Assembly: GCA_039621445.1 (NCBI GenBank) | Contig: CP154954.1 | Location: 41,719,572 to 41,783,571, forward strand | DNA length: 64,000 nucleotides | Direction: 5' to 3' | From: Euglena gracilis | Taxonomy: Eukaryota | Shown: positions 21,878 through 64,000 of the stretch, in pieces | Layout of the letters: the number at the start of each line of letters is the position of its first letter | Numbering within the stretch: position 1 is the first letter of the stretch | Program-made: the position numbers and the translations under genes | Notes under the pieces: generated by a model | The model's input: only the letters and a program-made list of their open reading frames with translations | The model's database searches: none | Told to the model about the DNA's origin: nothing

Positions 21878-21878
21878 G

Positions 21879-21909
<31 letters not shown>

Positions 21910-22020
21910 CATTGTTGTTCATGTATGTACTTATGTAAGTGATGTATGTATGTATGTATGTATGTATGTATGTATGTATGTATGTATGTATGTATGTATG
22001 TATGTATGTATGTATGTATG

Positions 22021-22052
<32 letters not shown>

Positions 22053-22200
22053 TGTGTGTATGTATGTATGTATGTATGTATGTATGTATGTATGTATGTA
22101 TGTATGTATGTATGTATGTATGTATGTATGTATGTGAGTGTATGTATGTGTGTATGTACGCATGTGCATATGTATATATGTATGTGTGTGTGTGTGTGCG
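21878..22200. repeat. (GTT)n, (TATG)n and (TG)n microsatellites
   Basis: Directly visible; (TATG)n ~21943-22134. Confidence 0.98.
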
Positions 22201-22746
22201 TGTTCTTAACAATTTATGTGATTCTTTTTTGGTGGATTGCGTTAATTTGAGTTTCATTTTATTGCTGGACAGGATTTTTTGACAGAAAATATGCAGTTAA
22301 GCAAAACACAACAAAATTGATTTTTGGTTCTGATACCACCTGAGGTTTTTCCTATCAATGATTTCTATGCAGAGATGAGCCCATGTTTGGCGGTCAATTC
22401 AAAGCCCCTTAGGCCGTTTAAAAAATTGGGGGGTTTAGTTGTCCTTTTTTGCAGCTAAATTTGTTGCTTCCCTGCTCAAATTCGACATTTTTAAAGCTTC
22501 TTGGAAGCACATCTGAGGTTCCATTTCGGGTGCGAGAGTTTGCAGCCAAAAGTGCCATTTTGTGCACTTTTTGGGCAAAAAATTCTCAAAAATGAAAAAA
22601 AAAGCAAAAAGCGCCGGAAGGAAAATTTTGACCTTTTTGGGTGGGGTCCATCCCCCTCCCCCCTGGGTTGGTCCGGACCCCCCACCGGTTTGGGGAGGGA
22701 CACCCTCCTTATATCGAACCCTGCCCAATCAAATGTGCAAATAAAG

Positions 22747-34800: not shown

Positions 34801-37800
34801 AAATGACCCTGCAATTTCCCGGAAAAAAAACGGTAGACAACTTTTTTGCTCGGCCTAAATCTCCAGACTGGCGGGGAGTTGCGGGTAACCCAAGGGCTCT
34901 GGAGAAACTAGGGACCCTCTCCTAACCTATAGGCTATTCACTTTGGGGGCCCGGAAATCCAATCACATCGATAATCCTCGGGTGGCCGGACCTACTCAGG
35001 GGGGGGGGGGGGCGGGGGGCGGGGGGGCGGGGGGGGTCAGGGGGGGGGGTTTCGGGGGGGTGGTAAGCTTCGCTCTTACTCTAAAGAGATAAGAGCTCAG
35101 CGACCAGGGTGTGACGTAGAGCTGAGCTCTTTGGGAGACCACCGCAGCCCGGCCCGGCGCCCGGCGCGGCCCGGCCCGGCCGGCGGCCCGGCGGCACGGC
35201 GGCCCGGCAGCCCGGCGGCCCGGCCGGCTGGCGGGTCGAAATACGCTCATTTTCGGCTCAAAAACAGGTTTTACGTGTCCTGGAGGCCAAAAAACATTGT
35301 TCTGGGCAAAACAAAATTTTTCGATTTTTTCGACTTTTTTGGCCCGGTTTTGACCCAAAGTCAATGAGTTGGTGGCCAAAATGGGGCACTGACGGTGGAA
35401 AAACGCCCATTTTCGGCTCAAAAACAGTTTTTCCGGGTCAGGGAGGTCAAAAAACATGATTTTGGGGCAAAAAATTTTTTTCGATTTTTTTCGACTTTTT
35501 TGGCCCGGTTTTGACCCAAAGTCAATGGGTTGGCGGCCCAAAACGAGGCGCTGGCGGGTCGAAAAACGCTCATTTTTGGCTCGAAAACACTTTTTTCGGC
35601 TCCGGGAGGTCAAACACATGTTTTTGGGCCAAAAAATTTTTTTTGAATTTTTTCGACTTTTTGACCCATAAATGGCTATCCACCGGCCAGGGGGGGGGGC
35701 AGGCCACAGCCACGGGGGGCATGGGGGGGGGTCCGGGTCGGAAAATTTTTTTCGCTCAAAAACACTTTTTTTGATGTTCTGAAGTGAAAAAAAGTGTCAA
35801 TTTTCAAATTTTTGGGTCCCAACCAGCCAACCCGACCCCCCTCGCCCAGCCGCCCTCACAGCGCCTGCAGGGGTCCCCGAATACCCAAAACTGGCCCAAA
35901 ATCGCGCAACCAGACCCCGGGAACCCCAAAAAACGGTCAAACCCCCCCCCCCTAAACCTAATGTTTGACCCCCTGGTTTGGGTTCCAACTCCTCGTCTAG
36001 CCCGAGATATGGGCAATTTACGGTTTCTGGCCCCGAATGGGCCCGAAATGGCCAAAGCTGGCCAAACTGGCCCAAAACCCCAAAACGGCCGTATCTCGGG
36101 CTACGCGAAGAGTTGGCCCAAACCGCGCATACCGATCGATCGGGCGTCCCAAAGTTGTGGAATGACGTCCTCTTTAATTTTTCTTAACTCAGCAGCGTTT
36201 TCGAGATATTTTGAATTTTTCGATTTTTTGACCCCAAAATGACCCTGCAATTTCCACGGAAAAAAAAACGGTAGACAACTTTTTTGCTCGGGCCATATCT
36301 CCGGACTGGTGGGGAGTTGCAGGTAACCCAAGGGCTCTAGAGATACTAGGGACCCTCTCCTAACCTATAGGCTATTCACTTTGTGGGCCCGGAAATCCAA
36401 TCACATCGATAATCCACGGGGGCCATTGCCTACCCAGGGGGGGGGGCGGGGGGGCGGCCGGGGGGGCGCGGGGGGGGGGGGGGGGGCGGGGGGGATTTGG
36501 ATTTGGATTTGTTGTGCCCCGCGTTGTTGCGCAGTGCCTCCAGCCGTGGGCGTACACAAGCACCACTCTGGAGGGCACCCCCGGAGCCCGGGCATTGCAA
36601 TTTGATTTGGGAGTTTGGGATTTGGTTGGGGGTTCGCCTGTGGGGGTGTGTGGGGTTTGGTGTCCAGGGGGCAAATAGAGTGAGGCCGGGATGGTATGAT
36701 GGGGGGATGAGGGCGTGCAAGCTGGGGGGCAGAGGCTGGGGGAATGAGTGGGAATGGGGGGCACAAATCGGAATGATGTGATGTTCCCACCGGACCGGGG
36801 CCCTCCTCCCGAGGGTCGGTCAGGGTAGAGGGTGGGGAACGCAGAAAAAAAAAAAAAAAAAAATAGACCAAGCTGGGTGCACCCTGGTCGCCGTACCCCC
36901 GGGGTGATATGGGGTCCACTCCTCTCCTTCGCCACAGAGAGGCTGTGCTCCGTCACGGAGGGGGGGGGGTTGATCCCCGCTACCTCGAACCTGAGGGGGG
37001 GCCGAAAATTCTTCTTTCATGGACGGGCAAAGGGCCGGAAATCGGCGTTTGATTGCGTTTATCCCAAATTTCGAACAACAGGACCAACACGGGGTGGTTG
37101 TGGTAATCTACAATTCGGTGGGTGGGAGGCCATGGGTTGGTTAGGATGTTCCAGAAGTTGGGGGCGGAACACTGGGGTGGGAGGTCAGGCAGTCGGCGTG
37201 TAGAACACCCCGGGGAGGGATTGAAATTGTATGGAAGTTTGGCGGGTGGAAGTTCAGCGGGTTGGACACCGCCAGGCGGTTGGGGTTATTCCGAGGTTCG
37301 GTGGTTACAACACCACGGGTGGTTGAGGGAGGCCTGGTAAAGCAGGGGGTTGGATGTCACAGGGTGTTCGAGGTGGTCCGGAAGCTCTGAGGGCACAGGG
37401 TGATTAGGGTTATGTGGAAGCTCGGTAGGTGGGTTTACGCGGGAGTTGGAAGGGTAGCACACCATGGTGGGCCATCAGGCTGAGTAACTGAGAAAGTTGA
37501 TGGGTCACCCGGAAATTTATGGGGTAAAGCACCGCATTGATTATGTCCGGAAAGATGGTGGGTAGGATGGGATGGTCCGGCAGCTGATTTTGAACACCAC
37601 GTGAGGTGGTTGGTGTGCAGTACACCATGGTTGTGGGGTTATCCAGGAGTTTGGTAATGGGGTGGGAGAGACACCAGGGGAGAGTTCTGGTTATGCAGAA
37701 GTTTATGGTCCATTGAGTTTCCAGAGGTGAGATGTGTGGAAGGCCACGGGGGGGGGGGGGCCCAGGTTTCAGCGGGTCGAACACCATGGGTTGGTCGGGA

Positions 37801-43211: not shown

Positions 43212-46193
43212 ACCAGGGAGGTCGGATGGGGGGTGGCGGCGGGGGGGGGGGGGGTCGGCGTCCACCAGTCTCGGCGGAGAGCTGGTGGGTGAGCTAGGGG
43301 GGGGGGGGGGGCAGGGGGTGGCAGAAAAACGGTGCCAGGCCCATTGTGACCGGTCCAAGGTTTAAAGTCCAAGAGGCTGCAAAAGAAATCATGAAATGGT
43401 TGGTGCAACACAAAATACATTTGCATGCTGACGTCGGGTTGTGAGACAAATCAGCACAAATTCAACAAACCATGGAGAGAGCTGTGTCTCACCGCGGTCT
43501 GAAGGAGGATGGGGCGTGCACTGTCGCCACATATGATTGTAAGGGAGAGGGAAATGGGCCTGGTGTCATGAAAGGTGGGAGTTGGCTGGAGGTGAAGGAG
43601 GCGCTGATGTAAATTCATGTTTCCGAGGGTGTTCTCTAGCTTTTCTTCTTTCCCTGCAATTTGGGAGATGCTGTTCTTTATGTTTTATGTGAGTTTATAA
43701 CACAGTGGGTCTTATTGCGGAAACTTGGGGGTTCGCGGTGAAGAGGATTTGGGCTGCCCCACTGGTGTGTTTTGACTGAAATGAGCTGCAAGGGAAATTT
43801 GTGGATGAAATTTATGCGCAGAATTAAAAAGGGTGTTTAAAGCAGCGTTTGCGTGTAAGTGGTCCTGCATAGAAATGGTTTCATTTCAGCAGCCAGCACC
43901 AGATGGATGTAATGCAGGGGGAGTTTCCTGATAGCTTAAATGGTGGGGCATTTGTGCGTGAGTGGGGTGGGTAGTGGGTGGAGGCAGAGTTGGGCAGGAT
44001 TCCCGGGTGCCGGACAGGGGTTGGCAGGGGGGTGAGTAGTGGGCACCATGCTTGGCGGGTGGTGGGGGATGGGCTGGGCGGGGCTGGTCGAATGGGGGGG
44101 GGGGTGGCAAAATTCCGAGAGGCAACAAATCAATTTGCTAGTGCATGCAAACCACGTTTGCATGCTGATGCCAGGCTGCGAGATAAAATCAGCACAAATG
44201 CATGATTCGGGGCTGGAGCAAGCAAAGGCCAGGTACCGGGTTGGAGCTGGCCTTTGAATGCAGGGGCAACGGCGGGCAGCCAGGTGGCTACCGTGTGAGT
44301 GTGGGTGCTGTCCGGTGGGGACGGGGGGGTGCGCCCAATGTGCTGTCGTGCCGTGTCTGGGGGTTTAGGGTGGGGGGGGCGTGTGCGAGGAGCTCCGGGG
44401 GGGGGGAGGAAAATGGGCCGCCGCGAGCGTTGGCGACCGGACCCGATCTCCTTGGTCCGTGGCCCGTTCATAGGCTGGGGTTGGGGCCGGGCCAGGACAG
44501 TAGAGCGAACGCCGGCGCTGATGCCCGGCACGAGCCAAGCACCCACACACAGGGTGGGGGGGTGTCTGTCGGGGGGGGGGTTCCGCATGCTGTGAGGGGC
44601 CCGTCTCTGGATTTTTGCAGCAAGTGCGCGGGGGGTATCGTGTGGGTTCGGGGCTGGGGTGATGCTGATCTGAGTAGGGGGGGAGTTAATGGGCACAAGG
44701 TCTGAGCGGTGCCAGACCGTGGAAAGTCAGGAGGGGGGGGGCCTGGCGCGGGGGTGGGGGATTTGTCCCAGAGGGCTGGTGTCGCCCCGGTCAACCCAGT
44801 TGGTGGTACTGCATGATGATGCCAGGGGTGGCCCGGCACTCTCAGAGGAGGACTGGCGGGTGGCTATCAAAGAAAGGAATAAATATGCTAAATTTTTATT
44901 TTAAAAAAAAACAGAGGAGCCTGAGGTTGGGGTGGGGGTGACTGCCACTGTGCACTCGCTGGGGGGGGGGGCGTTGTGTGCCTCCGAGGGGTTCTTCATG
45001 TAAGCACTAACCTCAGGTAGGGGTGAATGCGGGTAGGGGGTGTCTGGGTCATTCGGGGCTAGAGCAAGCAAAGGCCAGGTACCGGGTTGGGGCTGGCCTT
45101 TGAATGCAGGGGCAACGGCGGGCAGCCAGGGGGCGATTGGGGGAGCGTGGGTGCTGTCCGGTGGGGGACGGGGGGGGTGCGCACAATGTGCTGTCGTGCC
45201 GTGTCTGGGGGTTTAGGGTGGGGGGGGGGGCGTGTGCGAGGAGCTCCGGGGAGGGGGGGAGGAAAATGGGCCGCCGCGAGCTTCGGCGGCCGGGCCCGAG
45301 CTCATTTCTCTGGTAGGTGGTGGGGTGGTCCGGACCCCCCGCGGGCCAGGAGCGGGGGGGGGGGGGGGGTCGGCGATGCCGGTGCCTGCTTGGGTCATCA
45401 CAGACAGAGAGGAGGATGGCGGTGGCGGCGGAAAAAAGCGTCCCCGGGTGGGTGCCGAGGGTTTTGGCTGTGTGGCGGGTGGTGGAAGGGCCGGACGTGG
45501 GGGGAGTGCCGGTCGCGAACATCGTACGATGATCCCGCCGAGCGTGAAGGGCAGGGAACAGGGCCAGGGCGACGAGGAGGGGGTCGTCTGCGGCGGTGAA
45601 CTTCGTACGAGGATCCCGCCGAGCGCGAGGAGCAGGGAACAGGGTCAGGGCGACGAGGGAGGGGGTCGTCTGCGGCGGTGAACTTCGTACGATGTGCACG
45701 CCATGTTGAACGGCAGGGTTGATGATGAGGGCGATGGGCGAGGTGTCCTGGGGCAGAGGCGAAGTACTTCGTATGATGACCTCGCTGCGGGGAACAACAG
45801 GGAGGGACAGGATGGCGACGAACAACAGGCTGAGTCGTCGGTGAACTTCGTACGATGACGTTGGGAGGCAGGGGATGGGGGCGACGGTGGCCCGGGGCGG
45901 GAGGTGGATGAGGGCGTGCCCGCTGGGGGGGCAGAGGCCGGGATGGAATGATGGGGGGATGAGGGCGTGCCCGCTGGGGGGCAGAGGCTGTGATGGGGGA
46001 TGAGGGCGTGCCCGCTGGGGGTTAAGTCGGAAGGGACCCCGGGGGTACCACCAGTTCACCATACCTAGGTGTGTCGTCGAGTCCTGGGACCTATTCCATC
46101 ATTTGTCCTCCTATCCTAATATAATACACTTTTGTTGTTTTCGGAGCCTGACAACGCACACAGAAAAGGTTATTCAAAAAGCAAAAAAAATTC

Positions 46194-46520
46194 GTTGTTG
46201 TTGTTGTTGTTGTTGTTGTTGTCATTGTTGTTCATGTATGTACTTATGTAAGTGATGTATGTATGTATGTATGTATGTATGTATGTATGTATGTATGTAT
46301 GTATGTATGTATGTATGTATGTATGTATGTATGTATGTATGTATGTATGTATGTATGTATGTATGTATGTATGTGTGTATGTATGTATGTATGTATGTAT
46401 GTATGTATGTATGTATGTATGTATGTATGTATGTATGTATGTATGTATGTATGTGAGTGTATGTATGTGTGTATGTACGCATGTGCATATGTATATATGT
46501 ATGTGTGTGTGTGTGTGCGT
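46194..46520. repeat. (GTT)n/(TATG)n/(TG)n microsatellites, copy 2
   Basis: Directly visible. Confidence 0.98.
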
Positions 46521-47065
46521 GTTCTTAACAATTTATGTGATTCTTTTTTGGTGGATTGCGTTAATTTGAGTTTCATTTTATTGCTGGACAGGATTTTTTG
46601 ACAGAAAATATGCAGTTAAGCAAAACACAACAAAATTGATTTTTGGTTCTGATACCACCTGAGGTTTTTCCTATCAATGATTTCTATGCAGAGATGAGCC
46701 CATGTTTGGCGGTCAATTCAAAGCCCCTTAGGCCGTTTAAAAAATTGGGGGGTTTAGTTGTCCTTTTTTGCAGCTAAATTTGTTGCTTCCCTGCTCAAAT
46801 TCGACATTTTTAAAGCTTCTTGGAAGCACATCTGAGGTTCCATTTCGGGTGCGAGAGTTTGCAGCCAAAAGTGCCATTTTGTGCACTTTTTGGGCAAAAA
46901 ATTCTCAAAAATGAAAAAAAAAGCAAAAAGCGCCGGAAGGAAAATTTTGACCTTTTTGGGTGGGGTCCATCCCCCTCCCCCCTGGGTTGGTCCGGACCCC
47001 CCACCGGTTTGGGGAGGGACACCCTCCTTATATCGAACCCTGCCCAATCAAATGTGCAAATAAAG

Positions 47066-50757: not shown

Positions 50758-50851
50758 TTGGACAAAAGTTCGAGGAGAGGAAAAAGGAGAGTTCAAAAAA
50801 AAGATCCTACGCAAAAGCTGAGTTCCAAGAAGAAGGACAAAAAGCTTTACA
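50758..50851 (+). repeat. 5' LTR remnant (last ~95 bp only)
   Basis: Aligns to 58661-58750, both ending ccaagaagaaggacaaaaagctttaca. Confidence 0.9.
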
Positions 50852-50853
50852 AT

Positions 50854-50864
50854 TGGTAGCAGAG
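50854..50864 (+). promoter_or_regulatory. Primer binding site, initiator tRNA-Met type
   Basis: tggtagcagag 2 nt after the LTR-terminal CA; complementary to the ...CUCUGCUACCA 3' end of eukaryotic tRNAiMet. Confidence 0.85.
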
Positions 50865-51161
50865 AGGTATCATCTACCTCGACTTGCTGTCCTATCCTAC
50901 CCGTGGTCGCCGTCGTCGGAAGTCGTCGGAGAAGCGACACCGCCGAGAGCAACAAGAGGAGAAGAGAGCCTCCGAGGAGCCGCTCTGACCTTCCCTCTGA
51001 CCGCCTGACTGGACCCTGCCTGACCCACTCCTTTGTGGTCGGCCCCCAGTCAAAGCTTTTTACTAAGGCCAGCCGGACAAAGCCCACCCCCGGGGAGAGA
51101 CAAAGAAAGAGAACCCTCTCAAGTGTGAAAAGCCATAGCGTGAGCCTGTGAGCCCACCGCC

Positions 51162-52265
51162 ATGACTGAGTCACCACCGCCTGAACAAGAGCCTGAGCAT
51201 CAGTCCACTCTACAGGACATCGAGGAGAAGCTGAAGGACCTCGAGCTCAGAGTCTTCGGCCACGAGTCCAAGGACTCGTCAACCCCTCTCGTTTCCCCGT
51301 TCACACCCCACTCTTTTTGGGAGAAGAGGATTGAGAAGTTCAAGGGTAGCTTGGAGTTGAAAGAAAGTTCTGTGACAGCCAAACTCCCTCCTATCCCGTT
51401 GCCTTCGTTTGATGGTTCGGACCTTGAAGCCTTTTTGAAAGAGTTTGAACGTTGGTTGCGTCTTTCCGGTGTGAAAAGTGCCCCAGAAGCTTTCCAGTTG
51501 GATTGGCTCATCCAATGTGTTGTTCCCAAGTACAGAAAGGTTGTTGAAAAGGTTGTTGAGGATCAGCCCCAGCTTGACAAAGTGCTTTTGGCATTGTCCC
51601 AACTGTTTCCGAAGCTCGAGAACGACCTTACGCTTCGGGAATCCCTTGACCATCTCCAGTCCCTTTCAGCCACCCCAGACCCAGCCACAGTGAAAAGGTT
51701 GTTGGTTGAGTTTGAGGAGGTGACAGCCAGAATGTCAAAGGGAGCTTTGGGAGACCAGGAAAAGTACCTATACCTCTCCAAGAAAATTCACCCCAAGATG
51801 TTTTCTGAGTTGAGACAAGACAGGTACTACAAAAGGAGGACAGAAACTTATGAGGACTTGAAAGTTTGCTTGCTGGAAAAGGCCCAAGAAGATTGGTTGG
51901 AACGTCATCTTCAAAAGAAAATTTCGCTGCATACTCTCCAGGAAACACCCCAGCCACAAAAATCCCAAGGAGACTTGCCCATGGTTGATTCCCAGGTTTC
52001 TTCATCTTCCAAGCCTTCAGGGTTTTCCCAGGTGCAAGGCAAAGGAAAAGGCAAAGGAGTTTACCCCAAAGGCAAAGGAAGTGGTCCTGCCAAAGGCAAG
52101 GGCAAAGGCAAGGGTTTTTCCCATGTGCAAGGTGTGCAAAGTCAGCCCAACCAACGTGGACCCCCTCAGTTGTCTGTTTCTCTTTGGTGCAAGTTTTGTG
52201 GAAAGAAAGGTCATTATGAGGACAAATGTTGGAAAAAAAACAAGGAGGAAAGAAAAGCCAAATAA
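51162..52265 (+). CDS. gag: Gag with CCHC zinc knuckle
   Basis: 367-aa ORF; LPSFDG..LEAFL.EFE capsid-like start; CKFCGKKGHYEDKC; (GK)n tract. Confidence 0.92.
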   Translation: MTESPPPEQEPEHQSTLQDIEEKLKDLELRVFGHESKDSSTPLVSPFTPHSFWEKRIEKFKGSLELKESSVTAKLPPIPLPSFDGSDLEAFLKEFERWLRLSGVKSAPEAFQLDWLIQCVVPKYRKVVEKVVEDQPQLDKVLLALSQLFPKLENDLTLRESLDHLQSLSATPDPATVKRLLVEFEEVTARMSKGALGDQEKYLYLSKKIHPKMFSELRQDRYYKRRTETYEDLKVCLLEKAQEDWLERHLQKKISLHTLQETPQPQKSQGDLPMVDSQVSSSSKPSGFSQVQGKGKGKGVYPKGKGSGPAKGKGKGKGFSHVQGVQSQPNQRGPPQLSVSLWCKFCGKKGHYEDKCWKKNKEERKAK

Positions 52266-52352
52266 AAGGAGAAAAGTTCACCCCCATCCTCACAAACCCC
52301 CACACAACAACCCGATTCAGCCAAAAAGAGGAAAATTGACACACTCCACATC

Positions 52353-52720
52353 TTGAAAGGTACATCCCTCATCACCAATGTGACCATCAATGGGACATCC
52401 CTCAAGGCCATCATCGACAGTGGTGCAACAACAAGTGCCATTGCCCGGAAATGTGTTCCACCAGGTGCAATCATCAGATCGATGGTTGTCCCCATCCAAG
52501 TTGGAAATGGTGATGTGATTTTTTCGGATGGGATAGCCGAGCTCACTCTCCAATTTGGGGAGAGCATTTTGAAGCAAGAGGCGTTGGTCATCCAAACAAA
52601 TGCCTTTGAAGCCGTTTTAGGCATGGATGTTTTGACCAATGAAAAAGTGGGTGGTCTTTTGACACAACCCCCCCCTTGCAAGTTGCTCGTGGAAGGAAAA
52701 AAGTATCCTTTGATGGAAAA
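52353..52720 (+). CDS. pol: Retroviral-type aspartic protease
   Basis: LKAIIDSGATTSAI and AVLGMDVL; same frame as gag, beyond the TAA at 52263. Confidence 0.93.
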
Positions 52721-52759
52721 TGATGGTTCAAGGATTCATCGGATTTACCGACACTTCAA

Positions 52760-53250
52760 AAGGGAAAGTTACACACTTGTCCCCAATGTCAAAAAGGAAG
52801 TTCTTTCTCGTTTGGAAATGAACGATTTTGACATCGAGGTGGACCTATTCTCAAACCACAGGAATTTCCAAGAGGCTCGGTATTGTACGGGGCGAACAAC
52901 TCAGTTATCTACGATTGGAGTCGGATTGGAGAAAAGGAAAGTTCCATTTTGTGGGCGAATCCTCCTTTCTCGGTCCTCGACCGAGTTTTGACCAAGGTGG
53001 CCATGGAACCTCTCCGGATGGTTTTAGTTTGCCCGGATTGGGGAGATTTTTATTGGATACAAATTTTGGAAAAGCTTTCCATTGCTCAAGTTCAAGTCCC
53101 CAATGGCATGGAAACGTACCGTTCCGATTTTCAAGAAAAAGCATTGCCAGCCCCACAATGGAATACAATTGTTTCAGTTTTGGATTCCAAGTCGAAAAGC
53201 ATCCCGATTTCGGAGTTGGACCCCAAGATCGTGAAATGGATTTTGAGAAA
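52760..53250 (+). CDS. Dam-like DNA N6-adenine methyltransferase domain (1-nt frameshift at ~52890)
   Basis: EVDLFSNHRN...YCT / NSVIYDW...ILWANPPFSVLDRVLTKV...MVLVCPDWG..YW; NPPF at 52958-52969. Confidence 0.85.
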
Positions 53251-53504
53251 TGTCGGAAATGGGATTTGGAGCATTTGGTGAATGAACTCAAAAAGTACCC
53301 CAAAGTGAGTGTTGAGGGCATGGAAAGGGAGATTCAAGTGGATGTTGATGAAATCCCATTGTCTCCCCCCGTTTCACCCATCTCATCCTTGCCCCATGAC
53401 TCTCTTTTTCAGATGGAGAAAATACAAGTGTCATCGAAGTGGGTGCGGAATTATCAATCGAAGTGGATTTGAGCTTCACCGAGTAGGACCACAAGCCAGC
53501 AACA

Positions 53505-56500
53505 ATGGTGTCAAATATTGAAGAATTGGAGTTCAATGGAGCCGATGGTATGGAAGTCCGAGGTACCCCCTCTTCCCCCTTCACCGTTTCGGATGGAGAA
53601 TTGTCCAAGGTGTGTGAAAAGCTTTTGCAACAAATTCCCGTCCCACAAAAAGATGGTTTGTTTGACAAGGAAACCGAGAATTTGCATGGTGATTTGCAAG
53701 GTGATCTTGCCCGTTTTGAAAAGGAACCCCAATTGAAAGTGCTCCTTGAAAAGTACATGGAAATTTTTGGTCTTCTCCCAAGTACCGGCATGGGTTGTCA
53801 ACTCGTCCAATGTGATTTGAAACTCAAGGATGAGTTCAAGGGGAGGGTGATCCGTGGCAAATGTTGGCCAATGAGCGAAAAGGATTCCATGGAAATTCAC
53901 AAACAAGTGAATGAATTGGTGGAAAGTGGGTTGGTGGAGAGCTACCCCAAAGGAAAGACCCCAACCCATTGTTCTCCAACATTTTTGGTGGAAAAGAAGG
54001 AAAGCCAATCGAAAAGGATGGTGGGCCAATACAAAAAGGTCAAGGACCATGTGAAAAGTCGTTCGGCATTTTTACCAAACATGGAACAAATGGTCGAAAA
54101 TTTAGCCCAATGTCGATAGAAATCAAAACTCGACCTAAGAAGTGGGTTTTGGCAAGTTGGTTTGAGTGAAAGGGCAAAAAAACTCACCGCATTTGTCACC
54201 CCGAATGGTCAAGTGTGGCAATGGAATTGCATGCCATTTAGAATTCAAGCCGCACCCACAATTTTTCAAGAACTCATGGAAAGGGTGATTTCGGAAATGA
54301 AGGAAAATCCAAAGGTTGCAAATTTGTTGGAACCGAAAAATGGCCAAAGGAAATGTTTTGTGGGAGCATTTTTCGATGATGTCGGGGTGGGAGCATCGAC
54401 CATCCCCGAACATTTGTTTTTGTTGGAGGAACTTTTCAAAGTGGTGAAAAAGAACAAGCTCCGAATAAAGTTGACCAAGTGTGACTTTTTGAAAGAAAGC
54501 ATTGAGTACCTTGGTTTTTCGGTTCAATGGGCATCATGGAGGCCAAGTGAGAAAAATATTCAAGCTTTGGTGGATTTCAAAGTGAAACGTTTGAAAGATC
54601 TCCGTGCTTTTTTGGGAGCTTGCAACTTTTTTCGTCGCCATGTGAAAGCATTCACATTTTCAAGTGCGGACTTGACCGATCTTCTCAAGAAAAATGCAAG
54701 ATTTGTTTTGACCCAAAAAGAAGAAAAGCTCATCCAGGACATCAAGCAAAAACTTTTGGATGCGGTGCCCCTTGGGGTACCACGGTCGTGTGGAGAAATG
54801 GTTGTCATTACTGATGCCTCCGACCGGGGGGGAGGTGGAACGATTTTTCAATGGCAATCGTTGGACCCCTCTCAAGTCCCTCAAGGATTCACAACCCAAG
54901 GTATGTCCAAGGAAGGTGTGCTCATTCACAATTACCCAAATGAATTTCGGTTGGTACCCATCGGGCATTGGAATTGGAAATGGTGCCCCACAAGATCCCG
55001 GTATTCCACCTTTGAACAAGAACTTTTGGCCGGTGTGCTAATGTTTTCAACGCAAAGTCGAATTTTGCAAGGTTTGCCGGTTGTTTGGTTTTGTGATCAT
55101 GAGGCCCTCAAGAATTTCCTGGACAAAGAACCCCCCGTGAATCAAAGATTGAGACGTTGGTTTTGTTTTTTGGGTCAATTCATGATCAAGATTGTGCATA
55201 CACCCGGAATGAAAAATGAGTGGTGTGATTGGTTGTCAAGGAGTCATTTTGACCAAAAGTTCAATGTTGAATTCGAAAATTTGGCAAAAGTTACATTCGA
55301 AAAGATGGACTCCCAATTGGATCTTTCTTTGCAAGTTTTGTCGTTTGAGATGAAAGATTTCAATTTTCCATTGGATTACCCATCGAGTGATTTTGCCGAG
55401 ATTTGGGAAAAATTGGAACCATGGAAAGCTCAAGTCATCGATGATTGTTTGTGGTTCAAGGCCAAAGACAAACTTTTTTGTGAGCGAAAATTGGCCATCC
55501 CCAAGGAAAGTCTTCCCCAAGCGTCATCGTGGCTTCATCGAGCTCATGGTCATCCCGGTCCCGAGCGGACGCTTTGGTCATTTCTCCAAAATTTCCATTC
55601 ATCCCTCTCAAGAAAGGATTTGTTCGGTTTGTTTCGGAATGTTTTGGGTTCGTGTGAAACATGTGTCATGTCAAAGCCAAGTTCACAATCCGATCGTGGA
55701 CTTTTGGGTTGTTTGCCAATTCCTCCCCTTTGCAACGACATCATTTTTCTCGATTTTGTCGCCCTTGATGAATTCAATTCTTTTGATTACGCTTTGGGCA
55801 TTGTGGATGGTTTGAGTCGGTTTTGTTTGTACCTCCCATGCCACAAAGAAGTGACGGGTGAAAAAGTCTTGAAGATGATTTTGAAAGAATGGGTGGAAAA
55901 ATTTGGTCGCCCCAACGAAGTTTTGAGTGATAATGACATTCGCTTCAAGTCAAGTTCCGGTTTTTACCAAGAGGCCATGAAATCACTCGGAATCAAGGTT
56001 TCGTTCTCTCTTCCGAGGCATCCTTCATCAAATGGTTTGATGGAAAGAGAAACTCGTTCGTTTGTGCAAACATTGAGATGTCTTGTGCACGAAACGGGTA
56101 CAAAAGATTGGCCAAAGTTGCTTCCGTACGTCAATTTTCTGATGAACAGCCAGATTTCAAGTTCGACGGGAATGTCTCCATCGGAACTTTTCCTCGGTCG
56201 ATCTCCATGGAAATTCGAAAGTGTTGGAGAACCGTGTGAAAGCCCATCTGTCGAAAATTGGATTTTGGAACAGATTTTGATTCAAGAAAAGGCAAGTTTG
56301 AGGCTGAAACATCTCAGAAGTTTGGCGATGGAGCGGAAAAACAAGGTTCGAAAACCTGCCGTTTATGAAATTGGTCAATTTGTCCTCGTCCACAAGTCTC
56401 GATGGCCCCAGAGAAAAGTCGAAAAGATCGCCAGTCCATGGTTTGGACCCTACAAAGTTGTTCAAGTGCACTACAACTCTTTGCAAATTTTGGCATCTCC

Positions 56501-56560
56501 ATCATTGGGAGGTTTGGTGAAAGGTTTCGTTCTCCCAAGTGAAACACTGGAGTTCTGTCC
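53505..56560 (+). pseudogene. pol: Pol: RT - RNase H - integrase (in-frame TAG at 54117-54119)
   Basis: SPTFLVEKK, SKLDLRSGFWQ, TAFVTP, MPF, AFFDDV, KC.F....EYLG; ITDAS, EQELLA, CDH, N...DWLSR; H..HGHPG...CETC, LDFV, SDND, SNGLMER; WFGPYKV. Confidence 0.96.
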
Positions 56561-57579
56561 ATGACCCACACAATGACACTTCGTTTTTGTCAGAGGAGTG
56601 TGAGGAATTTGATGGTGCACAAACCCCTGCTTCATTCACAGGTCACACACACGACCGAGGAACAGGCGGCGAACAGCGAGGCGCAAGCGACGCACACAGA
56701 GGCGCACGCGACGAACGCACGACAAAACCAGAACACGACAGAACAAGGCCAGAACAGGAAACGCGAGGCGAAAGGCCCAGAACAGCCGAACGAGCACGCG
56801 ACGCACGGCCGAGCGCACGCGACGAACCCCCAGAAAGACCAGAAGGACCCAACCCCCAGAAAGACCAGTTTTCTTCTAATTTTCCCTCTCAGATGGTTAC
56901 CAGAAGTAAGGCCCGAGGGCCAGAATCAAGTTTCAATTCAAAGAATTCAAATTTTGGAGTTGGTCGACCCAGAGGTGAATCGAAGAGAATTTGGCAGAAA
57001 AAGTCGGAGTTTGAGAAGGACAACCTGGAGGAGAGTGGTCCAGATGGACCTTTGCAGCAGGCTGCTGCAGAAGCTGCTGATCACCTTGAAGTTGATGTTC
57101 AAAATGTTGATGATCTTGCTGTTCAACTTCCACAAGATGAACTTCAACATGATGGTGTTCTGGGGCCTGTGGCCCCAACACTGCAGCCCAGTGCTGCAGA
57201 TTCTGTGCCTGTTTTCCTAGTTTCACAGTCAGAACCAGAAAAAGTCAGCAGTTTTGCTTCAGAATGTGTTTCAGATTTGCCCAAAACAGCCAGACAGTTT
57301 TCAGAAATGGAGGCTGCAAAAATGGGTTTTTACAATGTTGAAGCCATTTTGGATCACAAGTTCAGAAATGGTTGGAGGTTTCTGACAAAGTGGGAGAATT
57401 ACCCAGTGCATTCATCAACATGGGGACCAGTCAGAAGTTTCATTTTGCCAGGTGGAAGAATGAACTCAGTTTTTCAGAATTACATTCATGACAGTGGTTT
57501 GCAAGAGGTTTTGAAGAAAGTGCAGAAGAATGTGAATACCCAACCCAGTCCAGTTTTCACAGTCAAACTGTTTCCATGA
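56539..57579 (+). CDS. Integrase C-terminal linker and chromodomain (~57328-57490)
   Basis: FYNVEAILDHKFRNGWRFLTKWENYPVHSSTWGP; joins IN if one G at ~56523 is removed (LVKVSFSQVKHW). Confidence 0.88.
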   Translation: MKHWSSVHDPHNDTSFLSEECEEFDGAQTPASFTGHTHDRGTGGEQRGASDAHRGARDERTTKPEHDRTRPEQETRGERPRTAERARDARPSARDEPPERPEGPNPQKDQFSSNFPSQMVTRSKARGPESSFNSKNSNFGVGRPRGESKRIWQKKSEFEKDNLEESGPDGPLQQAAAEAADHLEVDVQNVDDLAVQLPQDELQHDGVLGPVAPTLQPSAADSVPVFLVSQSEPEKVSSFASECVSDLPKTARQFSEMEAAKMGFYNVEAILDHKFRNGWRFLTKWENYPVHSSTWGPVRSFILPGGRMNSVFQNYIHDSGLQEVLKKVQKNVNTQPSPVFTVKLFP

Positions 57580-58319
57580 AATTTGGTGCCTTGGGCATCA
57601 GAAACTGACCCCAGCATGCACAACCAGCCAAGAAAGCAGAATAACCCCTCTCTTTTCTAAGTGCCAGCCCAGCTGCTGAGGAGTAGGATGTCTGGGTGCA
57701 GAAGCCACAGGGCCAGAAGGCACTTAGGTCTTGCACCTAAGAGTGGAATCAGCCTGAATTCGAATGCCATTTTGGCCAGGCCATGATTCTACCATCAGGT
57801 TCGCCAGCACCAGACCACAAACCACAACAAGTCATCTGATCATCTTCATCATCATGTTCTTCTTCATCATGATCATTTTTCAGAAGCTGTTGTTGTTCAC
57901 CATTTTGATGAAGATAGAGCTGTCGTTCTTCATTTTGATGTTCGCTGACTTTGGTGTTCTTTGTCTTGATGTTCACTGTTGGACATGTTGTTCACGGTTC
58001 CGTCTGGAATTTCAGAATGATGTTTGATTATGGCTTTTCCCAGTTTTTGTGTGAGAGAGAAAGGCCAGAGAGAGAGCAAACGGGAAAGAGAAAGAAAACC
58101 CCCCCACAGCCACAAACGACACAAGCTGGCTGGTGTAAAAAGTTTTTGATTTCTCTTCCACTGCCCCCTGACCAAAAAAAAAACAACAAAAAAGTGAACA
58201 ATTGATGCCGCTTTTACGGCCCACGTTCACGAGTCCAAAAAAAAAAAAGACCCTCGCCTGAGAATTCAGTCAAGTCTTTTGAGCCCGCTTTTTGTGTGCT
58301 TGGTGGGCTTTGCTTCACC

Positions 58320-58330
58320 AAGGGGGGGGA
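58320..58330 (+). promoter_or_regulatory. Polypurine tract
   Basis: aagggggggga just before the 3' LTR TG. Confidence 0.75.
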
Positions 58331-58331
58331 T

Positions 58332-58750
58332 TGAAAAGGTGGCTTTGGCTACCTTCCCCCCCCCCTGACCTCCCTGGGCAGTGGATGAAAGAGACCCCCT
58401 TTGCTCATAAAAGAAAGGTGCAAGAACCTGACTTCACAATTGGCCCATGTGTCCTTCATGGGGGGGGGGCTTCCACAAAGGAGTCTTCCCCAACGCCCCT
58501 CCCAAACCGCCCAACCACATTCTCTACTGATTCTTACTGTGACGTTCCTGACTTTTTGGTGTACATATGTCTCACCTTTCTGCACAGGCTGGCCTTGGTG
58601 CTTTGTTAAACAATGTGTTTTATGCTTGTGGATTGGAAGTAAAAGTGCCACGAAGGAGGATTTGGAAAAAGGTCGAGAGAGAGGAGAGTTCAAAAAAAAA
58701 GAAGGATTCTACGCAAGCTTAGTCCAAGAAGAAGGACAAAAAGCTTTACA
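58332..58750 (+). repeat. 3' LTR (419 bp)
   Basis: TGAAAAG...CTTTACA imperfect terminal IR, preceded by the PPT; 3' end matches the 5' remnant. Confidence 0.85.
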
Positions 58751-60615: not shown

Positions 60616-63310
60616 TTTTTTTTTTGGAGGGATGGGATGGGAGAGTGGTTGGTCAAATTGCTCACTCCGTTTCATATGGGCTATGGGTGGTGGGATCCAC
60701 CGCTCCAGATGGCTCCGCCACTGTTCCTCAAGCCAGCTGGCGGGCCACTTCTCTTGCCAATGTGAGACACAGGTTGTTGATGGTTGGGTATTGTTGTTTA
60801 CTTTTTGACGAGTTGTGGATGGTTTTAGGACAATTGTTTGTTCTGGGTCTAGGGATCGTAGTGGTCTTCTTTACAGACAATACGGCTGGTGTATGGTGTT
60901 GGTAACTTCTGGATCTGTGTCGTTGCCTGCATACCGTCCCCAGATTACTTGTCGCGCGATCTCTCGCGCAACAGTTATTGATAGAAGTTGCCATGTGTTG
61001 GCTTCAGTTTTGCGTTTTGACCATGCATCTTGTTGACCGAGGAGAAGTTTCATCAGTGTTGACATTAAGGTTAGCGCTTCTTGGCCTAGGCCGCCATAGC
61101 AGTCAACAACAAATGGAATGCAGGTCCATCCCATCCTCCTACAGGTGGCGTCATATTTTGAATGTTTTTCCTTCTCTTGGCGTTCATACCATTCGGTTAG
61201 TTCAGCTGTGTCACGCAACGGTCTGTACGGTGCTGCTGTGTGTCTCATTGTGATATCCACTGCTCCAGGACCATTGGCGTCAAGTCTGCTGATGAGGACA
61301 TCGCCCGGGCGTGTTCTCTCTGGACCTCCTTGTTCTTTTTTTGCTGTAAACCCTGCATCATGTGCCAGTTGGAACACAAAGTCCTGGATTGCACCATGTC
61401 GCCGCGTGATGCCATTTGAGCTGCATCATACAAGGTGATTACCCAGGTTGTCCATTGGCTTGGTGCAGCGTGGGCACGTTGATCCCGTTGGTGGACAAAC
61501 TGGTGCTCCCAGTGACCACTTTAGAAATCCTTTGAATTCGGCAGAAGCGACCAATGTTTTCAGTCCACAGGATGGTGTGACAGAAGCCCAGGCCATTGTG
61601 TGGGGCCGCTGTTGGCTTGCGAACCGGACGGCGTCTTGACCGTGAAGGTTGGAGGATAATACCTTTTACCGTTGTTTCGCAAAGCACTCACCCCACCACT
61701 TCTTTTGAATGTGAGGGCTTTGGGCTCCGTTCAGGAGTGATACATCCGCGGCCCATGTTTGCGTTGGGGGAGTTCCTTCGGGGATGGAGTTGGCAGAGGA
61801 CAGGCACTCCGCAGTGTCTTTCGGTACTCCTCGGTCTGCCAGGCCAAAGGTGCGTCTGCCATTGCTGACAAACGTCACAATGCCGGATATACGTGCCGGG
61901 AGACGTTCCAGCGATGGGTCCCGAATTCCGAGTCCGCCATGACGCACGGGCAGGGTGGCCTGAGCCCATTGGTTGTCATCGATTGGGGATCCAACAATGT
62001 TGCTCATTGTGTTCCTGATTTCTTTGGTCAACAGTGCACATGCGTCATTTGCCTGCCCCAGTTCTGTTGCACGCATGAGGTCATTAACTTTGCATGCATC
62101 TAGGCATGATCGTAAGAGGCAGAACTGAATATGGGCTTGCGGCAGGTTCAAAAGGGCCCGGCAAGCTTTCTGCACACCTGTTGCACGTTCAGCCCACACT
62201 TCCCCCGCAAAGCCACCGCTTTGTGGATGGCAAACCGAGATTCCCAGGGCCCGTATACCAGAATCGGGGGAGTAGTTCACGATTGGGACTGCACGAAGTG
62301 GGCTGTTTGGCGGCATTTCAGCACGATTGGCTTCTGTTGCTGCAGGGCCCCACATGCGGCATTTTTTTGTGTTGAGGTGTATGCCTAGTAGCGTCCCCTG
62401 TCGTTGAATTTCTGTAATTGCTGCATGTAATTGTGGGAGGGTTCCCAGGATGTGTCCATCATCCAAATACCACAATTGCAGTGGCACCACGTCTTGCAAG
62501 GACTCAACGAGAGATTGCAACGCCAAGGCGAATCCGGCTGGGCCACAAGGGTCACCTTGTTGTACGCCAGAGGCACTGCGAAGGTGTGATGACCCACAAA
62601 AGAGCGGGCTGTGTTCGGCGTAGCAGCTCTCGAACCAAACGTACGCCTCCGGGCAGCGTTTAGCCACTTCAGCAAGGACTGTCTTTCTTTTTACGCAATT
62701 AAAAGCATTGCTGAAATCTACCTGTAACAAAGCCCAGGTGCTGTCCTGTTGCATGCGCAGGTGATTTACTTCTTGCTGAAGTCCCATAGCAATGAGTTCA
62801 CATGCCCCCTGGACCCCTACACCGCACTGTAGTGGCTGCAGTTCTTTAAGGCGGTCCCTGATTTTGGGGTGCCTCATCAAATATTTGCCCACCAATCGGC
62901 GCAGGCATTCCCCAGCCGCAATTGGTCGCGTGCCATCCTTCTTTGGGTCATGAATGGGGTTGGTATTGCCAAGCTCATCAAGGTTTTCGCTTGGATTGCA
63001 GGGTTTTCGAAGAGGAGTCAAACGGGCACCAGCGAAAATCCATGCCGCAGAGTTGTGGATTCCGTTTGTCAAACATGTTCGGACGAATTGGTCCAAAATT
63101 GTGAGGAGTTGTTCTGATTGTGTCCCCAGGGGATCAGAGAGCATGTCTTTAAGATGATCTGGCCGAAGTCCGGACGGTCCTGGTGAGGACTCCTTCGGGA
63201 AAGACATGACTGCTTTCAGTATTTCAATTAGGCGCTCCCTGGTTGCATCTTCACTCAGGTCGAATTCGAGGCGAGGGAAGTACGGAGGCAGATTTTGCCT
63301 TCCAGGTTGT
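60616..63310 (-). mobile_element. 5'-truncated CRE-clade non-LTR retrotransposon (RT + CCHC + REL), two premature stops
   Basis: SSPGPSG, RPIAAGE..RRL, LQCGVG, VDFSNAFN, GVQQGDP, WYLDDG, GGLG. Frame continues through TAA 61666-61668 and TGA 61426-61428 to CPRC..MDNLGNH...RRH, RPGDV...AVDI, KEKHSKY; stop at 60871; A10 tail at 60616-60625. Confidence 0.93.
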
Positions 63311-64000
63311 CTGTCTTGTTATTTGTCTGGGTCGCGCAGATTAACCAAGATCAAGGTGTGAGGCTATTCTTATTTTTTTAAGTTTTCTTATTTTTTTGCG
63401 GAATTATTTTTTTTGCATCTGCGTCGTCAGTGGAACCTTTTTGGCCCATGTTTTTTTCTTCGAGAAGTTGTGGAAACATTCATGGAAGACAATTGTCTGT
63501 TGACACCCCATTTGGGGGGGGTGGCGTTCAATGTGCGTTGTCCTCCATTGGGGATGGGCCAAAATTTGGCCACTTTTTCAAAAAAAAATATGAAAAGAGT
63601 CACTTTTTTTTGGCAGTTTTTTTGGGTCGGGATGGAGATTTTTAAAGTTTTTTTTAAGTTGGAAAAATCAGCACAATTGTTTTTGGGCCATTTTGGGCGT
63701 CAAAGAATTTTTGTGACCCCCTGGGAGCCATGGCACGTGCAGTGCATGGGGGGGGGGGGTGGCAAATGGGGTCAAACGGCGCGCCTGGTCCCCACAGTTT
63801 GGGTCAGCCATGTTGATCCAAAATTATTGGCGCAAAGTTTCAGAATTTTTTGAGTAATGTGAAAACCCCAGCCCCCCCCCCCCCAGGGGATGGGGTTCAG
63901 GGGGTGCTGACTCAAAACGTGTCGGAAATTTCCAGTTCCAGTCGGTTTCACCTGACTCAACCTGACCCAAAAACCTTCAAATATTTTTTGGCCAAGAACC

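What the first reader, a model, noticed from the sequence alone, without database searches (positions are those of the whole stretch)
54181..57760. Sharp k-mer switch: pol core nearly free of CAG/CTG, chromodomain tail CpG-free and CAG/CTG-rich
Seen (hand counts): 54181-56100 (1920 bp) has about 3 CAG/CTG, against roughly 50 expected from base composition, while CpG is common; Gln is CAA and Leu is TTG/CTT/CTC. In 57007-57760 I find no CpG and about 60 CAG/CTG. The second half of gag is also CpG-poor and CWG-rich. Inference, two options: (a) methylation-deamination in different contexts (CWG in pol gives synonymous CAA/TTG; CpG loss in the tail creates CWG); (b) selection against the CAG...CTG pair that defines euglenid non-conventional introns, keeping pol unspliced.
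Basis: partly seen in the sequence, partly recalled or inferred. Interest (0 to 1): 0.75.

Follow-up and report, generated by a model that had tools for sequence, protein, structure and literature searches.

The report
Retrotransposon with motif-purged sequence compartments
A very abundant retrotransposon has almost no CAG/CTG in its enzyme-coding core and no CpG in its tail, and the evidence suggests selection on the motifs rather than methylation damage keeps it that way.

Summary
In 54181-56100 there are 3 CAG/CTG against 50 expected. In 57007-57760 there are 0 CpG against 39 expected, and 60 CAG/CTG.

The CAG/CTG-free zone is wider than reported, about 52476-56138 (protease to integrase).

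The element is a degraded copy of a Ty3/gypsy chromovirus with a Dam-like adenine-methyltransferase domain. This matches the "DAM-LTR" type described for Euglena in a 2026 preprint. Its family is highly repeated in the source organism.

At codon junctions of the form NCN|G the sequence must carry either CWG or CpG. The core chooses CpG 27:1 and the tail chooses CWG 25:0. Cytosine deamination cannot remove NCW|G synonymously. This copy's private mutations recreate TA, CWG and CpG at neutral rates, and a 24-kb duplication shows no CpG or CWG hypermutability.

Motif-level selection in the replicating lineage fits better. The agent is unresolved. Option (b), avoidance of the euglenid CAG...CTG nonconventional-intron code, is the leading candidate but is unproven, and several results count against it. 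Recombination between unrelated elements is not supported.

The parts
50758..50851 (+). Remnant of the 5' LTR. Only its last 70-95 bp remain, ending ...GCTTTACA. It is cut off where the 24-kb duplication ends.
   Evidence: 50785-50851 matches 58682-58750 at 86%; contigs of other copies continue upstream with sequence like 58628-58657.
50854..50867 (+). Primer-binding-site-like sequence starting with TGG, two bases after the LTR end.
   Evidence: Read directly from the sequence. Its likeness to the 3' end of initiator tRNA-Met is recalled and was not tested.
51162..52265 (+). gag ORF of 367 aa, with a zinc-knuckle-like CX2CX4HX4C near its end.
   Evidence: translation; 59% identity to P0106 residues 30-586, an alignment that runs on into protease.
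51637..52313 (+). CpG-poor compartment in the second half of gag (4 CpG in 677 bp).
   Evidence: positions. CpG 3 against 9.4 (own-usage permutation) and 20.3 (uniform).
52353..52889 (+). Aspartic protease.
   Evidence: PF13975, E 2e-10.
52812..53263 (+). Dam-like adenine-methyltransferase-like domain with an LWANPPFS motif. Broken here by frameshifts near 52889-52895 and near 53245.
   Evidence: tblastn to P0106 residues 561-712, 56-66% identity. PF05869 in relatives. No Pfam hit on the window's own broken ORF.
52476..56138 (+). CAG/CTG-free compartment, from protease to the integrase core. It holds 9 CWG in 3663 bp, and 2 of these (52904, 54735) are private to this copy. CTG is absent from 52175.
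53433..56522 (+). Reverse transcriptase, RNase H and integrase. There is an in-frame stop near 53484 and a frameshift near 56522.
   Evidence: Pfam hits: RVT_1, RT_RNaseH, rve, Integrase_H2C2; 69% identity to P0106.
56539..57005 (+). Low-complexity Arg/Glu/Asp-rich linker. Both CpG (34) and CAG (20) are abundant, and it contains short tandem repeats.
57006..57760 (+). CpG-free compartment: the chromodomain-coding end of pol plus the start of the 3' untranslated part. CpG stays sparse to about 58080.
57331..57429 (+). Chromodomain. The ORF stops at 57577-57579.
   Evidence: PF00385, E 6e-6, 26.5 bits against a cutoff of 25.1; 49-59% identity to the tails of P0005 and P0004.
58054..58100 (+). 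Purine-rich stretch, a candidate polypurine tract. The start of the 3' LTR was not fixed.
   Evidence: Read from the sequence. Inference only.
58682..58750 (+). End of the 3' LTR (...GCTTTACA).

Best explanation
Shown: the region is one decayed copy of a very high-copy Ty3/gypsy chromovirus that carries a Dam-like domain. Its family sequence is divided into compartments:
- TA is avoided throughout.
- CAG/CTG are avoided from protease to the integrase core.
- CpG is avoided in the second half of gag and in the chromodomain tail plus the following untranslated stretch.

Wherever a Ser/Pro/Thr/Ala codon NCN precedes a G-starting codon, the sequence must contain either CWG or CpG. Avoiding one therefore forces the other. 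This makes two avoidance regimes look like a sharp k-mer switch.

Inferred: the avoidance is kept up by selection on the motifs in the replicating lineage. It is not produced by methylation-driven deamination in resident copies.

Inferred, and much less certain: in the core, the selected-against feature is the CAG...CTG signal of the euglenid nonconventional splicing system. That system could cut pieces out of a roughly 6-kb intron-free ORF. TA avoidance appears to be a general property of ORFs in this genome. The reason for the CpG-free tail is open.
For: Family-level property:
- 7037 Logan contigs of run X1 lie on the element. Core and tail are covered alike, and contigs bridge core, linker and tail.

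Motif level, not codon level:
- CWG and TA fall far below synonymous permutations.
- Junction choice NCW|G to NCS|G is 1:27 in 53505-56099 and 25:0 in the tail, Fisher P 3e-14.
- No C precedes AG or TG codons in the core (0 of 26 and 0 of 36).

Selection rather than mutation:
- Deamination of NCW|G is always non-synonymous (this follows from the genetic code).
- TAG and CTA are not raised.
- At 28 sites where at least 90% of family depth differs from this copy, the copy has gained 5 TA, 2 core CWG and 5 CpG. Unbiased mutation would give 5.1, 2.5 and 3.8 per 30 changes.
- C-to-T differences in the 24-kb duplication: CG 8 of 2260, CWG 2 of 1576, other C 33 of 7484.

Recurrence in relatives:
- L005 (47% aa identity) is also CWG-avoiding: CAG 4 against 29.5, CTG 6 against 27.2, junctions 5:24.
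- L006 is CpG-avoiding: CpG 11 against 52, junctions 14:1.
- L004 shows neither.

Splicing premise:
- Single-base changes in CAG or CTG abolish nonconventional splicing, and 50-nt synthetic introns are spliced (PMC12501133, sections 7 and 10).
- Chromodomain-bearing DAM-LTRs are reported in Euglena gracilis (bioRxiv 10.64898/2026.05.21.726589, section 4).
Against: Against the splicing agent:
- The host was not identified. No genome is held and the window has no RNA genes.
- CGG and CCG, which also work in the published code (PMC12501133 section 11), are at expected levels in the core.
- gag, linker and tail of the same RNA are rich in CAG/CTG.
- Among the remaining code-compatible motif pairs, the share with helices of 8 bp or more equals the permutation value (0.0092 against 0.0103 +/- 0.0015).
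- The best CAG...CTG helix across the core (52859/57382, 13 bp) is at chance level.
- A second RT ORF at 61666-63318 (-) is not depleted (72 against 55).
- Relatives L001-L003 have normal CWG in RT-IN.
- TA avoidance and the CpG-free tail are not explained by splicing.

Against selection in general:
- The polarity of the 28 private sites is assumed, with the family majority taken as ancestral.
- Only the 40 best-supported of 919 differences were shown to me.
- The 131 substitutions in the duplication are transversion-rich (46 transitions, 85 transversions) and may include assembly errors.
Confidence: 0.35

Rival explanations
1. Escape from a CWG-directed DNA-level silencing or mutagenic system. 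The system could be non-CG cytosine methylation by a DNMT4-like or TE-encoded methyltransferase, or a RIP-like process. Lineages whose essential pol core lacks the target motif stay active. The CpG-free tail would be the same kind of escape from the default CpG methylation.
For: - CAG and CTG are one double-stranded site and both are missing.
- The avoidance looks like selection.
- E. gracilis is reported to have DNMT1, 2, 4 and 5 (PMC7463849, passage).
- Some Euglena DAM-LTRs carry a DNMT4-related domain, and CpG methylation is the default state there (bioRxiv 10.64898/2026.05.21.726589, section 4).
- CpG loss in the core follows flanking context. RCGY is 9 against 43 and YCGR is 66 against 43, and the host background shows the same trend.
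Against: - No CWG methylation is reported in the passages I read. 'CHG' and 'CWG' occur 0 times in the preprint's main text.
- CWG shows no hypermutability in the duplication (2 of 1576).
- In 52175-53497 CTG is absent but 10 CAG remain, which is odd for a strand-symmetric site.
- The other RT ORF is not depleted.
- The 5' UTR and the first half of gag keep both motifs.
Confidence: 0.15
2. A mosaic made by recombination or template switching between related sub-lineages that evolved under different regimes, possibly in different hosts. A CWG-avoiding lineage (like L005) would have given the core. A CpG-avoiding lineage (like L006) would have given gag-C and the tail.
For: - The compartment borders are sharp, at 56139 and at 57005/57006.
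- Both regimes exist separately in relatives for the same gene region.
- Between 52500 and 54150 the element is about as similar to P0092 as to P0106, while elsewhere P0106 is 15-20 points closer.
- The preprint notes ongoing domain exchange among Euglena retroelements (section 4).
Against: - Similarity to P0106 and P0092 does not change across the 56139 border.
- L005 is not closer to the window core than L001 is (47% against 57%).
- The tail architecture is shared with relatives, so it is not a foreign capture.
- At least three regimes would need three sources.
- This explanation moves the question of what made each regime without answering it.
Confidence: 0.15
3. Methylated cytosines deaminate in different contexts in different parts of the element. 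CWG in pol decays to CAA/TTG, and CpG in the tail decays to CA/TG and so creates CWG.
For: - CAA and TTG are the most enriched trinucleotides in the core (133 against 55 and 138 against 70).
- The tail has a CA and TG excess (1.86 and 1.45).
- CCG-to-CTG and CGG-to-CAG changes would make CWG from CpG, and at NCS|G junctions these changes are synonymous.
Against: - TAG and CTA, the other half of the CWG deamination products, are depleted.
- NCW|G junctions cannot be removed synonymously by deamination, yet they are gone.
- Private mutations and the duplication show no CpG or CWG hypermutability.
- The tail has lost even YCGR CpGs, which the host background largely keeps.
Confidence: 0.1
4. The motif partition is tied to the element's own Dam-like methyltransferase. 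Under this reading the enzyme's target includes the adenine of CAG. Sites would be concentrated in the gag and tail regions and kept out of the core, so that 6mA is written only near the ends.
For: - Strong CWG avoidance was seen only in members of this Dam-carrying clade (window, L005, partly L001) and not in the other RT ORF.
- The CWG-rich compartments are also the CpG-free ones.
- The preprint links 6mA to unmethylated CpG regions (section 4).
Against: - The specificity of these domains is unknown.
- Heterologous expression gave no 6mA, and host 6mA sits at ApT (preprint section 4).
- L001-L003 carry the domain but show little depletion in RT-IN.
Confidence: 0.05

Closest known systems
DAM-LTR retrotransposons, the chromodomain-bearing Euglena and chlorophyte lineages (bioRxiv 10.64898/2026.05.21.726589)
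   Same: Ty3/gypsy order of domains, a C-terminal chromodomain, a Dam-like domain with the Asn-Pro-Pro motif inside pol, and very high copy number.
   Different: The preprint sections I read say nothing about k-mer compartments. 'codon', 'CHG' and 'CWG' each occur 0 times in its main text. The Dam match is below Pfam's cutoff in the closest relatives.
CpG suppression in methylated transposons and in retroviruses
   Same: A dinucleotide is purged from a retroelement while the protein is kept, and the tail shows a CA/TG excess.
   Different: Here the purge is confined to sharply bounded compartments. The main compartment loses a trinucleotide pair (CAG/CTG) instead. No sign of current hypermutability was found.
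Euglenid nonconventional intron code, 5'-N3CDG...CH'GN5-6|R (PMC12501133)
   Same: The avoided trinucleotides are exactly the core of that code.
   Different: The code also accepts CGG/CCG, which are not avoided here. It needs flanking helices, whose frequency here is at chance. No spliced form of the element was seen among the joints shown (67 joints were not shown).
Repeat-induced point mutation and target-motif-poor survivors in fungi (recalled, not read here)
   Same: The idea that a repeat family persists because it lacks the motif that a genome defence acts on.
   Different: RIP raises TpA. Here TA is strongly depleted, and copies are 95-99% alike with no hypermutation.

Membership tests
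Ty3/gypsy chromovirus (Metaviridae) | pol order protease, RT, RNase H, integrase | tested here: met
   Pfam hits in that order along 52353-56564. One search shows collinear alignment to the 2069-aa polyprotein P0106.
Ty3/gypsy chromovirus (Metaviridae) | Chromodomain at the C-terminus of integrase | tested here: met
   PF00385, 26.5 bits against a cutoff of 25.1, at 57331-57429. It is conserved in P0004 and P0005.
Ty3/gypsy chromovirus (Metaviridae) | Two LTRs, a primer-binding site and a target-site duplication | tested here: inconclusive
   Only the last ~70 bp of the 5' LTR are present. There is a TGG-starting PBS-like sequence. The LTR start was not fixed, and the target duplication cannot be checked because the 5' LTR is truncated.
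DAM-LTR | Dam (PF05869) domain with the Asn-Pro-Pro catalytic motif inside the retrotransposon ORF | tested here: inconclusive
   The window's own broken ORFs give no Pfam hit. tblastn aligns 52812-53263 to the Dam region of P0106, with LWANPPFS conserved. Of 9 relatives scanned, PF05869 passes its cutoff in 2 (P0084 40.9 bits, P0070 32.6), scores 19.6-27.6 bits in 6, and is absent in 1 (P0100, which starts after that region).
Resident of a euglenid genome | Host identity | not testable with these tools
   No genome is held. Organism names are coded. The window has no tRNA or Rfam RNA. Close relatives occur only in unnamed metagenome records.
Sequence shaped by 5mC deamination at CWG | Rise of both product classes (TAG/CTA and CAA/TTG), and survival of sites whose loss would be non-synonymous | tested here: not met
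   TAG 7 against 70 and CTA 5 against 55. NCW|G 1 against NCS|G 27.
Sequence shaped by 5mC deamination at CpG (tail) | CA/TG excess and raised C-to-T rate at CpG | tested here: inconclusive
   CA 1.86 and TG 1.45 in the tail. No CpG hypermutability in the duplication (0.35% against 0.44%) or in the private changes (5 CpG gained, 1 lost).
Avoidance of the nonconventional splicing code | Depletion of all functional motif classes and of helices next to remaining motif pairs | tested here: not met
   CAG/CTG are depleted, but CCG is 21 against 16.9 and CGG is 22 against 21.0. The share of helices of 8 bp or more is 0.0092 against 0.0103 +/- 0.0015. This lowers the claim that the whole code is avoided. 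It does not exclude that the strongest motif is.

The most novel reading that the evidence does not exclude
A noncanonical splicing system imposes motif-level selection on a mobile element. To keep a roughly 6-kb intron-free ORF intact in a euglenid nucleus, where CAG...CTG hairpins are excised as introns, this hyper-abundant DAM-chromovirus has purged CAG and CTG from its enzymatic core. At NCN|G junctions it accepts CpG instead. This would be the first case of a transposon recoding itself against a host's nonconventional intron code. It predicts that CWG density falls with exon length across euglenid genomes.
Probability: 0.3. Interest if true: 0.8.

Novelty: new variant of a known kind. Interest (0 to 1): 0.62.

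Why it matters
Dinucleotide suppression in retroelements is usually read as methylation damage or as evasion of one host sensor. Here one element has three sharply bounded regimes: TA avoided everywhere, CAG/CTG avoided in pol, and CpG avoided in gag-C and the tail. A forced trade-off at NCN|G junctions gives a clean read-out of which regime rules where.

If the agent for the core is the euglenid nonconventional splicing code, this links a recently decoded splicing system to transposon evolution. It also gives a simple genome-wide prediction, that long exons should be poor in CWG. If the agent is epigenetic, it points to a non-CG pathway that has not been described in these organisms.

Either way, the junction test can be reused on other coding sequence to separate selection from deamination.

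Tried and rejected
- **Own genome:** not held.
- **Earlier findings:** nothing on record.
- **Viral contig scan for relatives:** none found.
- **Rfam and tRNA scans of the window:** nothing that could name the host.
- **Cluster look-up of relatives:** no organism names.
- **A nonconventional intron spanning pol.** The best CAG...CTG helix (52859/57382, 13 bp with 3 G-U, in-frame junction) is what about 4300 pairs give by chance: about 0.24 expected at 13 bp or more, 1 seen. No such joint appeared among those shown.
- **Inverted repeats between gag-C and the tail:** none of note.
- **A central polypurine tract at the 56139 border,** which could give a deamination gradient: no such tract in the sequence, and the compartments are box-shaped rather than graded.
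- **An antisense ORF 51628-52365 under the CpG-poor part of gag.** It has no Pfam hit and only weak likeness to the L001 counterpart. TA depletion makes long ORFs in all frames.
- **A-to-I editing.** Rejected because AAG is enriched (128 against 70). That the enzymes are animal-specific is recalled.
- **GC-biased conversion.** Rejected because third positions are T-rich (197 of 646).
- **Avoidance of GATC or other palindromes.** GATC is 11 against 14, so it is not avoided.
- **Strand asymmetry (CTG lower than CAG).** It is seen in most segments of most relatives, so it is probably a general TTG preference. I did not use it as evidence.
- **Coverage differences between parts.** Not used as evidence.
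- **Failed scripts:** searches failed (two code errors and one time-out) and were rerun.

Full report
**What is there.** The finding lies inside a single LTR retrotransposon spanning about 50758-58750 on the + strand.

- Pfam finds an aspartic protease, RT, RNase H, integrase and a C-terminal chromodomain in Ty3/gypsy order.
- The element ends in ...GCTTTACA at 50851 and at 58750. A TGG-starting primer-binding-like site follows the left end.
- Only the last ~70-95 bp of the 5' LTR survive. The break coincides with the end of a 24.3-kb tandem duplication at ~98% identity, 2416-26433 = 27421-50757.
- The copy is dead. It has frameshifts near 52889-52895, near 53245 and near 56522, and an in-frame stop near 53484.
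- Intact relatives are single ORFs of 1974-2069 aa.
- Between protease and RT the family carries a Dam-like domain with an LWANPPFS motif. Of 9 relatives scanned, PF05869 passes its cutoff in 2 and scores 19.6-27.6 bits in 6 others.
- This is the architecture of the "DAM-LTR" chromodomain elements described for Euglena gracilis and green algae in bioRxiv 10.64898/2026.05.21.726589 (section 4 read).
- The host of the window could not be named.
- The family is very abundant in the coded organism A. 7037 contigs of run X1 lie on the element at 80% likeness or more, 2353 of them at 99% or more. Contigs bridge core, linker and tail.

**The observation.** A sliding profile and position lists show four compartments:
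- CpG-poor gag-C, 51637-52313.
- A CAG/CTG-free core, 52476-56138. CTG is already gone from 52175, and CAG from 53498.
- A linker, 56139-57005, where both motifs are plentiful.
- A CpG-free stretch, 57006-57760, sparse to about 58080. It crosses the stop codon at 57577.

TA is depleted everywhere in the element, at observed/expected 0.1-0.25 against about 0.47 for the window.

With the protein held fixed, the depletions persist. After that control gag-C is CpG-poor but not CWG-rich.

**Why it looks like a switch.** When a codon NCN (Ser TCN, Pro, Thr, Ala) is followed by a codon starting with G, the junction reads C-N-G. It must be either CWG or CpG.

| Segment | CWG junctions | CpG junctions |
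|---|---|---|
| 53505-56099 | 1 | 27 |
| tail | 25 | 0 |
| gag-N | 10 | 2 |
| gag-C | 6 | 0 |
| linker | 11 | 1 |

In 53505-56099 the commonest third base of NCN codons elsewhere is A, yet the junctions still choose CpG. Fisher's test gives P = 3e-14 for core against tail. CWG richness in the tail and retained CCG/CGG in the core are therefore partly forced by-products of the opposite avoidance.

**Mutation or selection.** Several results argue against deamination as the cause in the core.
1. Deaminating either cytosine of an NCW|G junction changes an amino acid, so mutation pressure under purifying selection should leave those sites in place. They are gone.
2. Deamination of CWG should yield TAG/CTA as often as CAA/TTG. 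TAG and CTA are at 0.1 of expectation. In the core, no codon ending in C or T (bar one) precedes an AG codon.
3. At 28 sites at least 90% of family depth differs from this copy. Taking the family majority as ancestral, the dead copy has gained 5 TA, 2 CWG inside the core (52904, 54735) and 5 CpG. It has lost 0 TA, 4 CWG outside the core and 1 CpG. Equal-rate mutation predicts 5.1 TA, 2.5 CWG and 3.8 CpG gained, and 0.75, 1.8 and 1.7 lost, per 30 changes. So mutation in this genome does not itself disfavour these motifs.
4. The 24-kb duplication carries 131 substitutions with clean flanks. C-to-T differences affect 0.35% of CpG cytosines, 0.13% of CWG cytosines and 0.44% of other cytosines.

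Caveats apply. Polarity is assumed. Only 40 of 919 differences were shown to me. The duplication's differences are transversion-rich (46 transitions, 85 transversions) and may include assembly errors.

I conclude, as an inference, that the avoidance is maintained by selection in the replicating lineage.

**Relatives.** Six metagenome contigs encode relatives at 41-57% identity.
- L005 (2.5 kb, RT-IN) is as CWG-poor as the window core: 12 CWG in 2539 bp, CAG 4 against 29.5, CTG 6 against 27.2, junctions 5:24.
- L006 (1.1 kb, RNase H-IN) is CpG-poor and CWG-normal: CpG 11 against 52, junctions 14:1.
- L001 is partly CWG-depleted only around protease-Dam-mid: CAG 0.61, CTG 0.30.
- L002 and L003 show little depletion, and L004 shows none.
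- TA is avoided in all but L004 and, less strongly, L002.
- The tails of L001-L003 are not CpG-free.

So both regimes recur in the clade, in different places. L005 is no closer to the window than L001 is.

**Recombination.** The chromodomain tail is homologous to those of P0004 (59%) and P0005 (49%), so it is not a capture from an unrelated element. A sliding comparison with P0106 and P0092 shows no change of relative similarity across the 56139 border. There is only a hint of a different history between 52500 and 54150. Recombination among related sub-lineages remains possible, but it would not explain what made each regime.

**What is selected against.**
- Nonconventional introns make up 71.8% of E. 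agilis introns.
- They need CAG and CTG, and single changes in either abolish splicing.
- They also need short flanking helices.
- 50-nt synthetic versions can be spliced (PMC12501133, abstract and sections 5, 7, 10, 11; PMC11282704, passages).

A roughly 6-kb intron-free ORF offers thousands of CAG x CTG pairs, so purging them is a reasonable adaptation.

The results against this are set out under the best explanation, and they are substantial:
- CGG/CCG also function in the code and are not avoided.
- gag, linker and tail of the same RNA keep many CAG/CTG.
- The count of code-compatible pairs is lowered (5451 against 7268 +/- 543), but the share with extended helices is not.
- No convincing intron spans pol.
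- The other RT ORF in the window is not depleted.
- L001-L003 are not depleted in RT-IN.
- Neither TA avoidance nor the CpG-free tail is explained.

T|A junction avoidance is shared by every long ORF I examined in the window, so it looks like a property of the genome rather than of this element. That is an inference.

Rival agents could not be tested here. They are a CWG-directed methylation or mutagenic defence, a link to the element's own Dam-like enzyme, and inheritance from other hosts.

**Literature.** My searches found no report of CAG/CTG-free compartments in transposons or of k-mer effects of the nonconventional splicing code.

**Verdict.**
- Option (a) is not supported for the core and is unproven for the tail.
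- Option (b) is the leading mechanism, but I give it only about 0.3.
- The element type is already described. The compartmented motif avoidance and the junction trade-off are, as far as I could find, new.

Noticed in passing
window 2416-26433 and 27421-50757: A 24.3-kb tandem segmental duplication at about 98% identity. Its second copy ends exactly where the truncated 5' LTR begins. The copies differ by 131 clean substitutions (46 transitions, 85 transversions), and the rest of the ~2% divergence is presumably indels (not counted), so part of it may be assembly error.
   Followed up: partly
window 52812-53263: A Dam-like adenine-methyltransferase-like domain (LWANPPFS) lies between protease and RT, broken by two frameshifts in this copy. 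It places the element among the DAM-LTRs of a 2026 preprint.
   Followed up: partly
window 61666-63318 (-): A second reverse-transcriptase ORF of 550 aa (RVT_1, E 4e-13) from a different element. It avoids TA at codon junctions but does not avoid CAG/CTG.
   Followed up: partly
window 52476-56138 and 1-50700: CpG loss depends on flanking bases. RCGY is strongly depleted (9 against 43 in the core; 446 against 950 in the background). YCGR is kept (66 against 43; 837 against 950). I recall that some de novo DNA methyltransferases prefer RCGY. This was not checked.
   Followed up: no
window 50985-51020, 58161-58170, 58365-58372, 58428-58433, 58548-58553: A repeated CCTGAC-like motif occurs in the 5' untranslated region and again in the 3' LTR region. 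It may be a regulatory site.
   Followed up: no
window 51027-51047 / 58464-58484, 51062-51074 / 58587-58599, 51121-51137 / 58029-58045: Three stretches of the 5' untranslated region are complementary to the 3' LTR region (13-21 nt, 86-92%).
   Followed up: no
window 21846-22265 and 46161-46584: An AT-rich tandem-repeat block (GC about 0.33, TA at or above expectation) is present in both copies of the duplication.
   Followed up: no
window 9292-12168 and 33613-36494: Tandem 1.4-kb repeats at about 85% identity, with lowered CAG/CTG (0.36-0.9) and raised CCG/CGG (1.4-1.7).
   Followed up: no
whole window: Strand asymmetry over 64 kb (G 30.1%, C 23.9%). Genome-wide TA is at 0.47 of expectation and CAA/TTG are 1.35-1.63-fold enriched.
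   Followed up: no
window 57356-57466 and 57410-57858: Family variants lacking 109 and 447 bases of the chromodomain region appear in contigs of two runs each (X1 with X15, and X1 with X3). Their ends do not fit the nonconventional intron code.
   Followed up: partly
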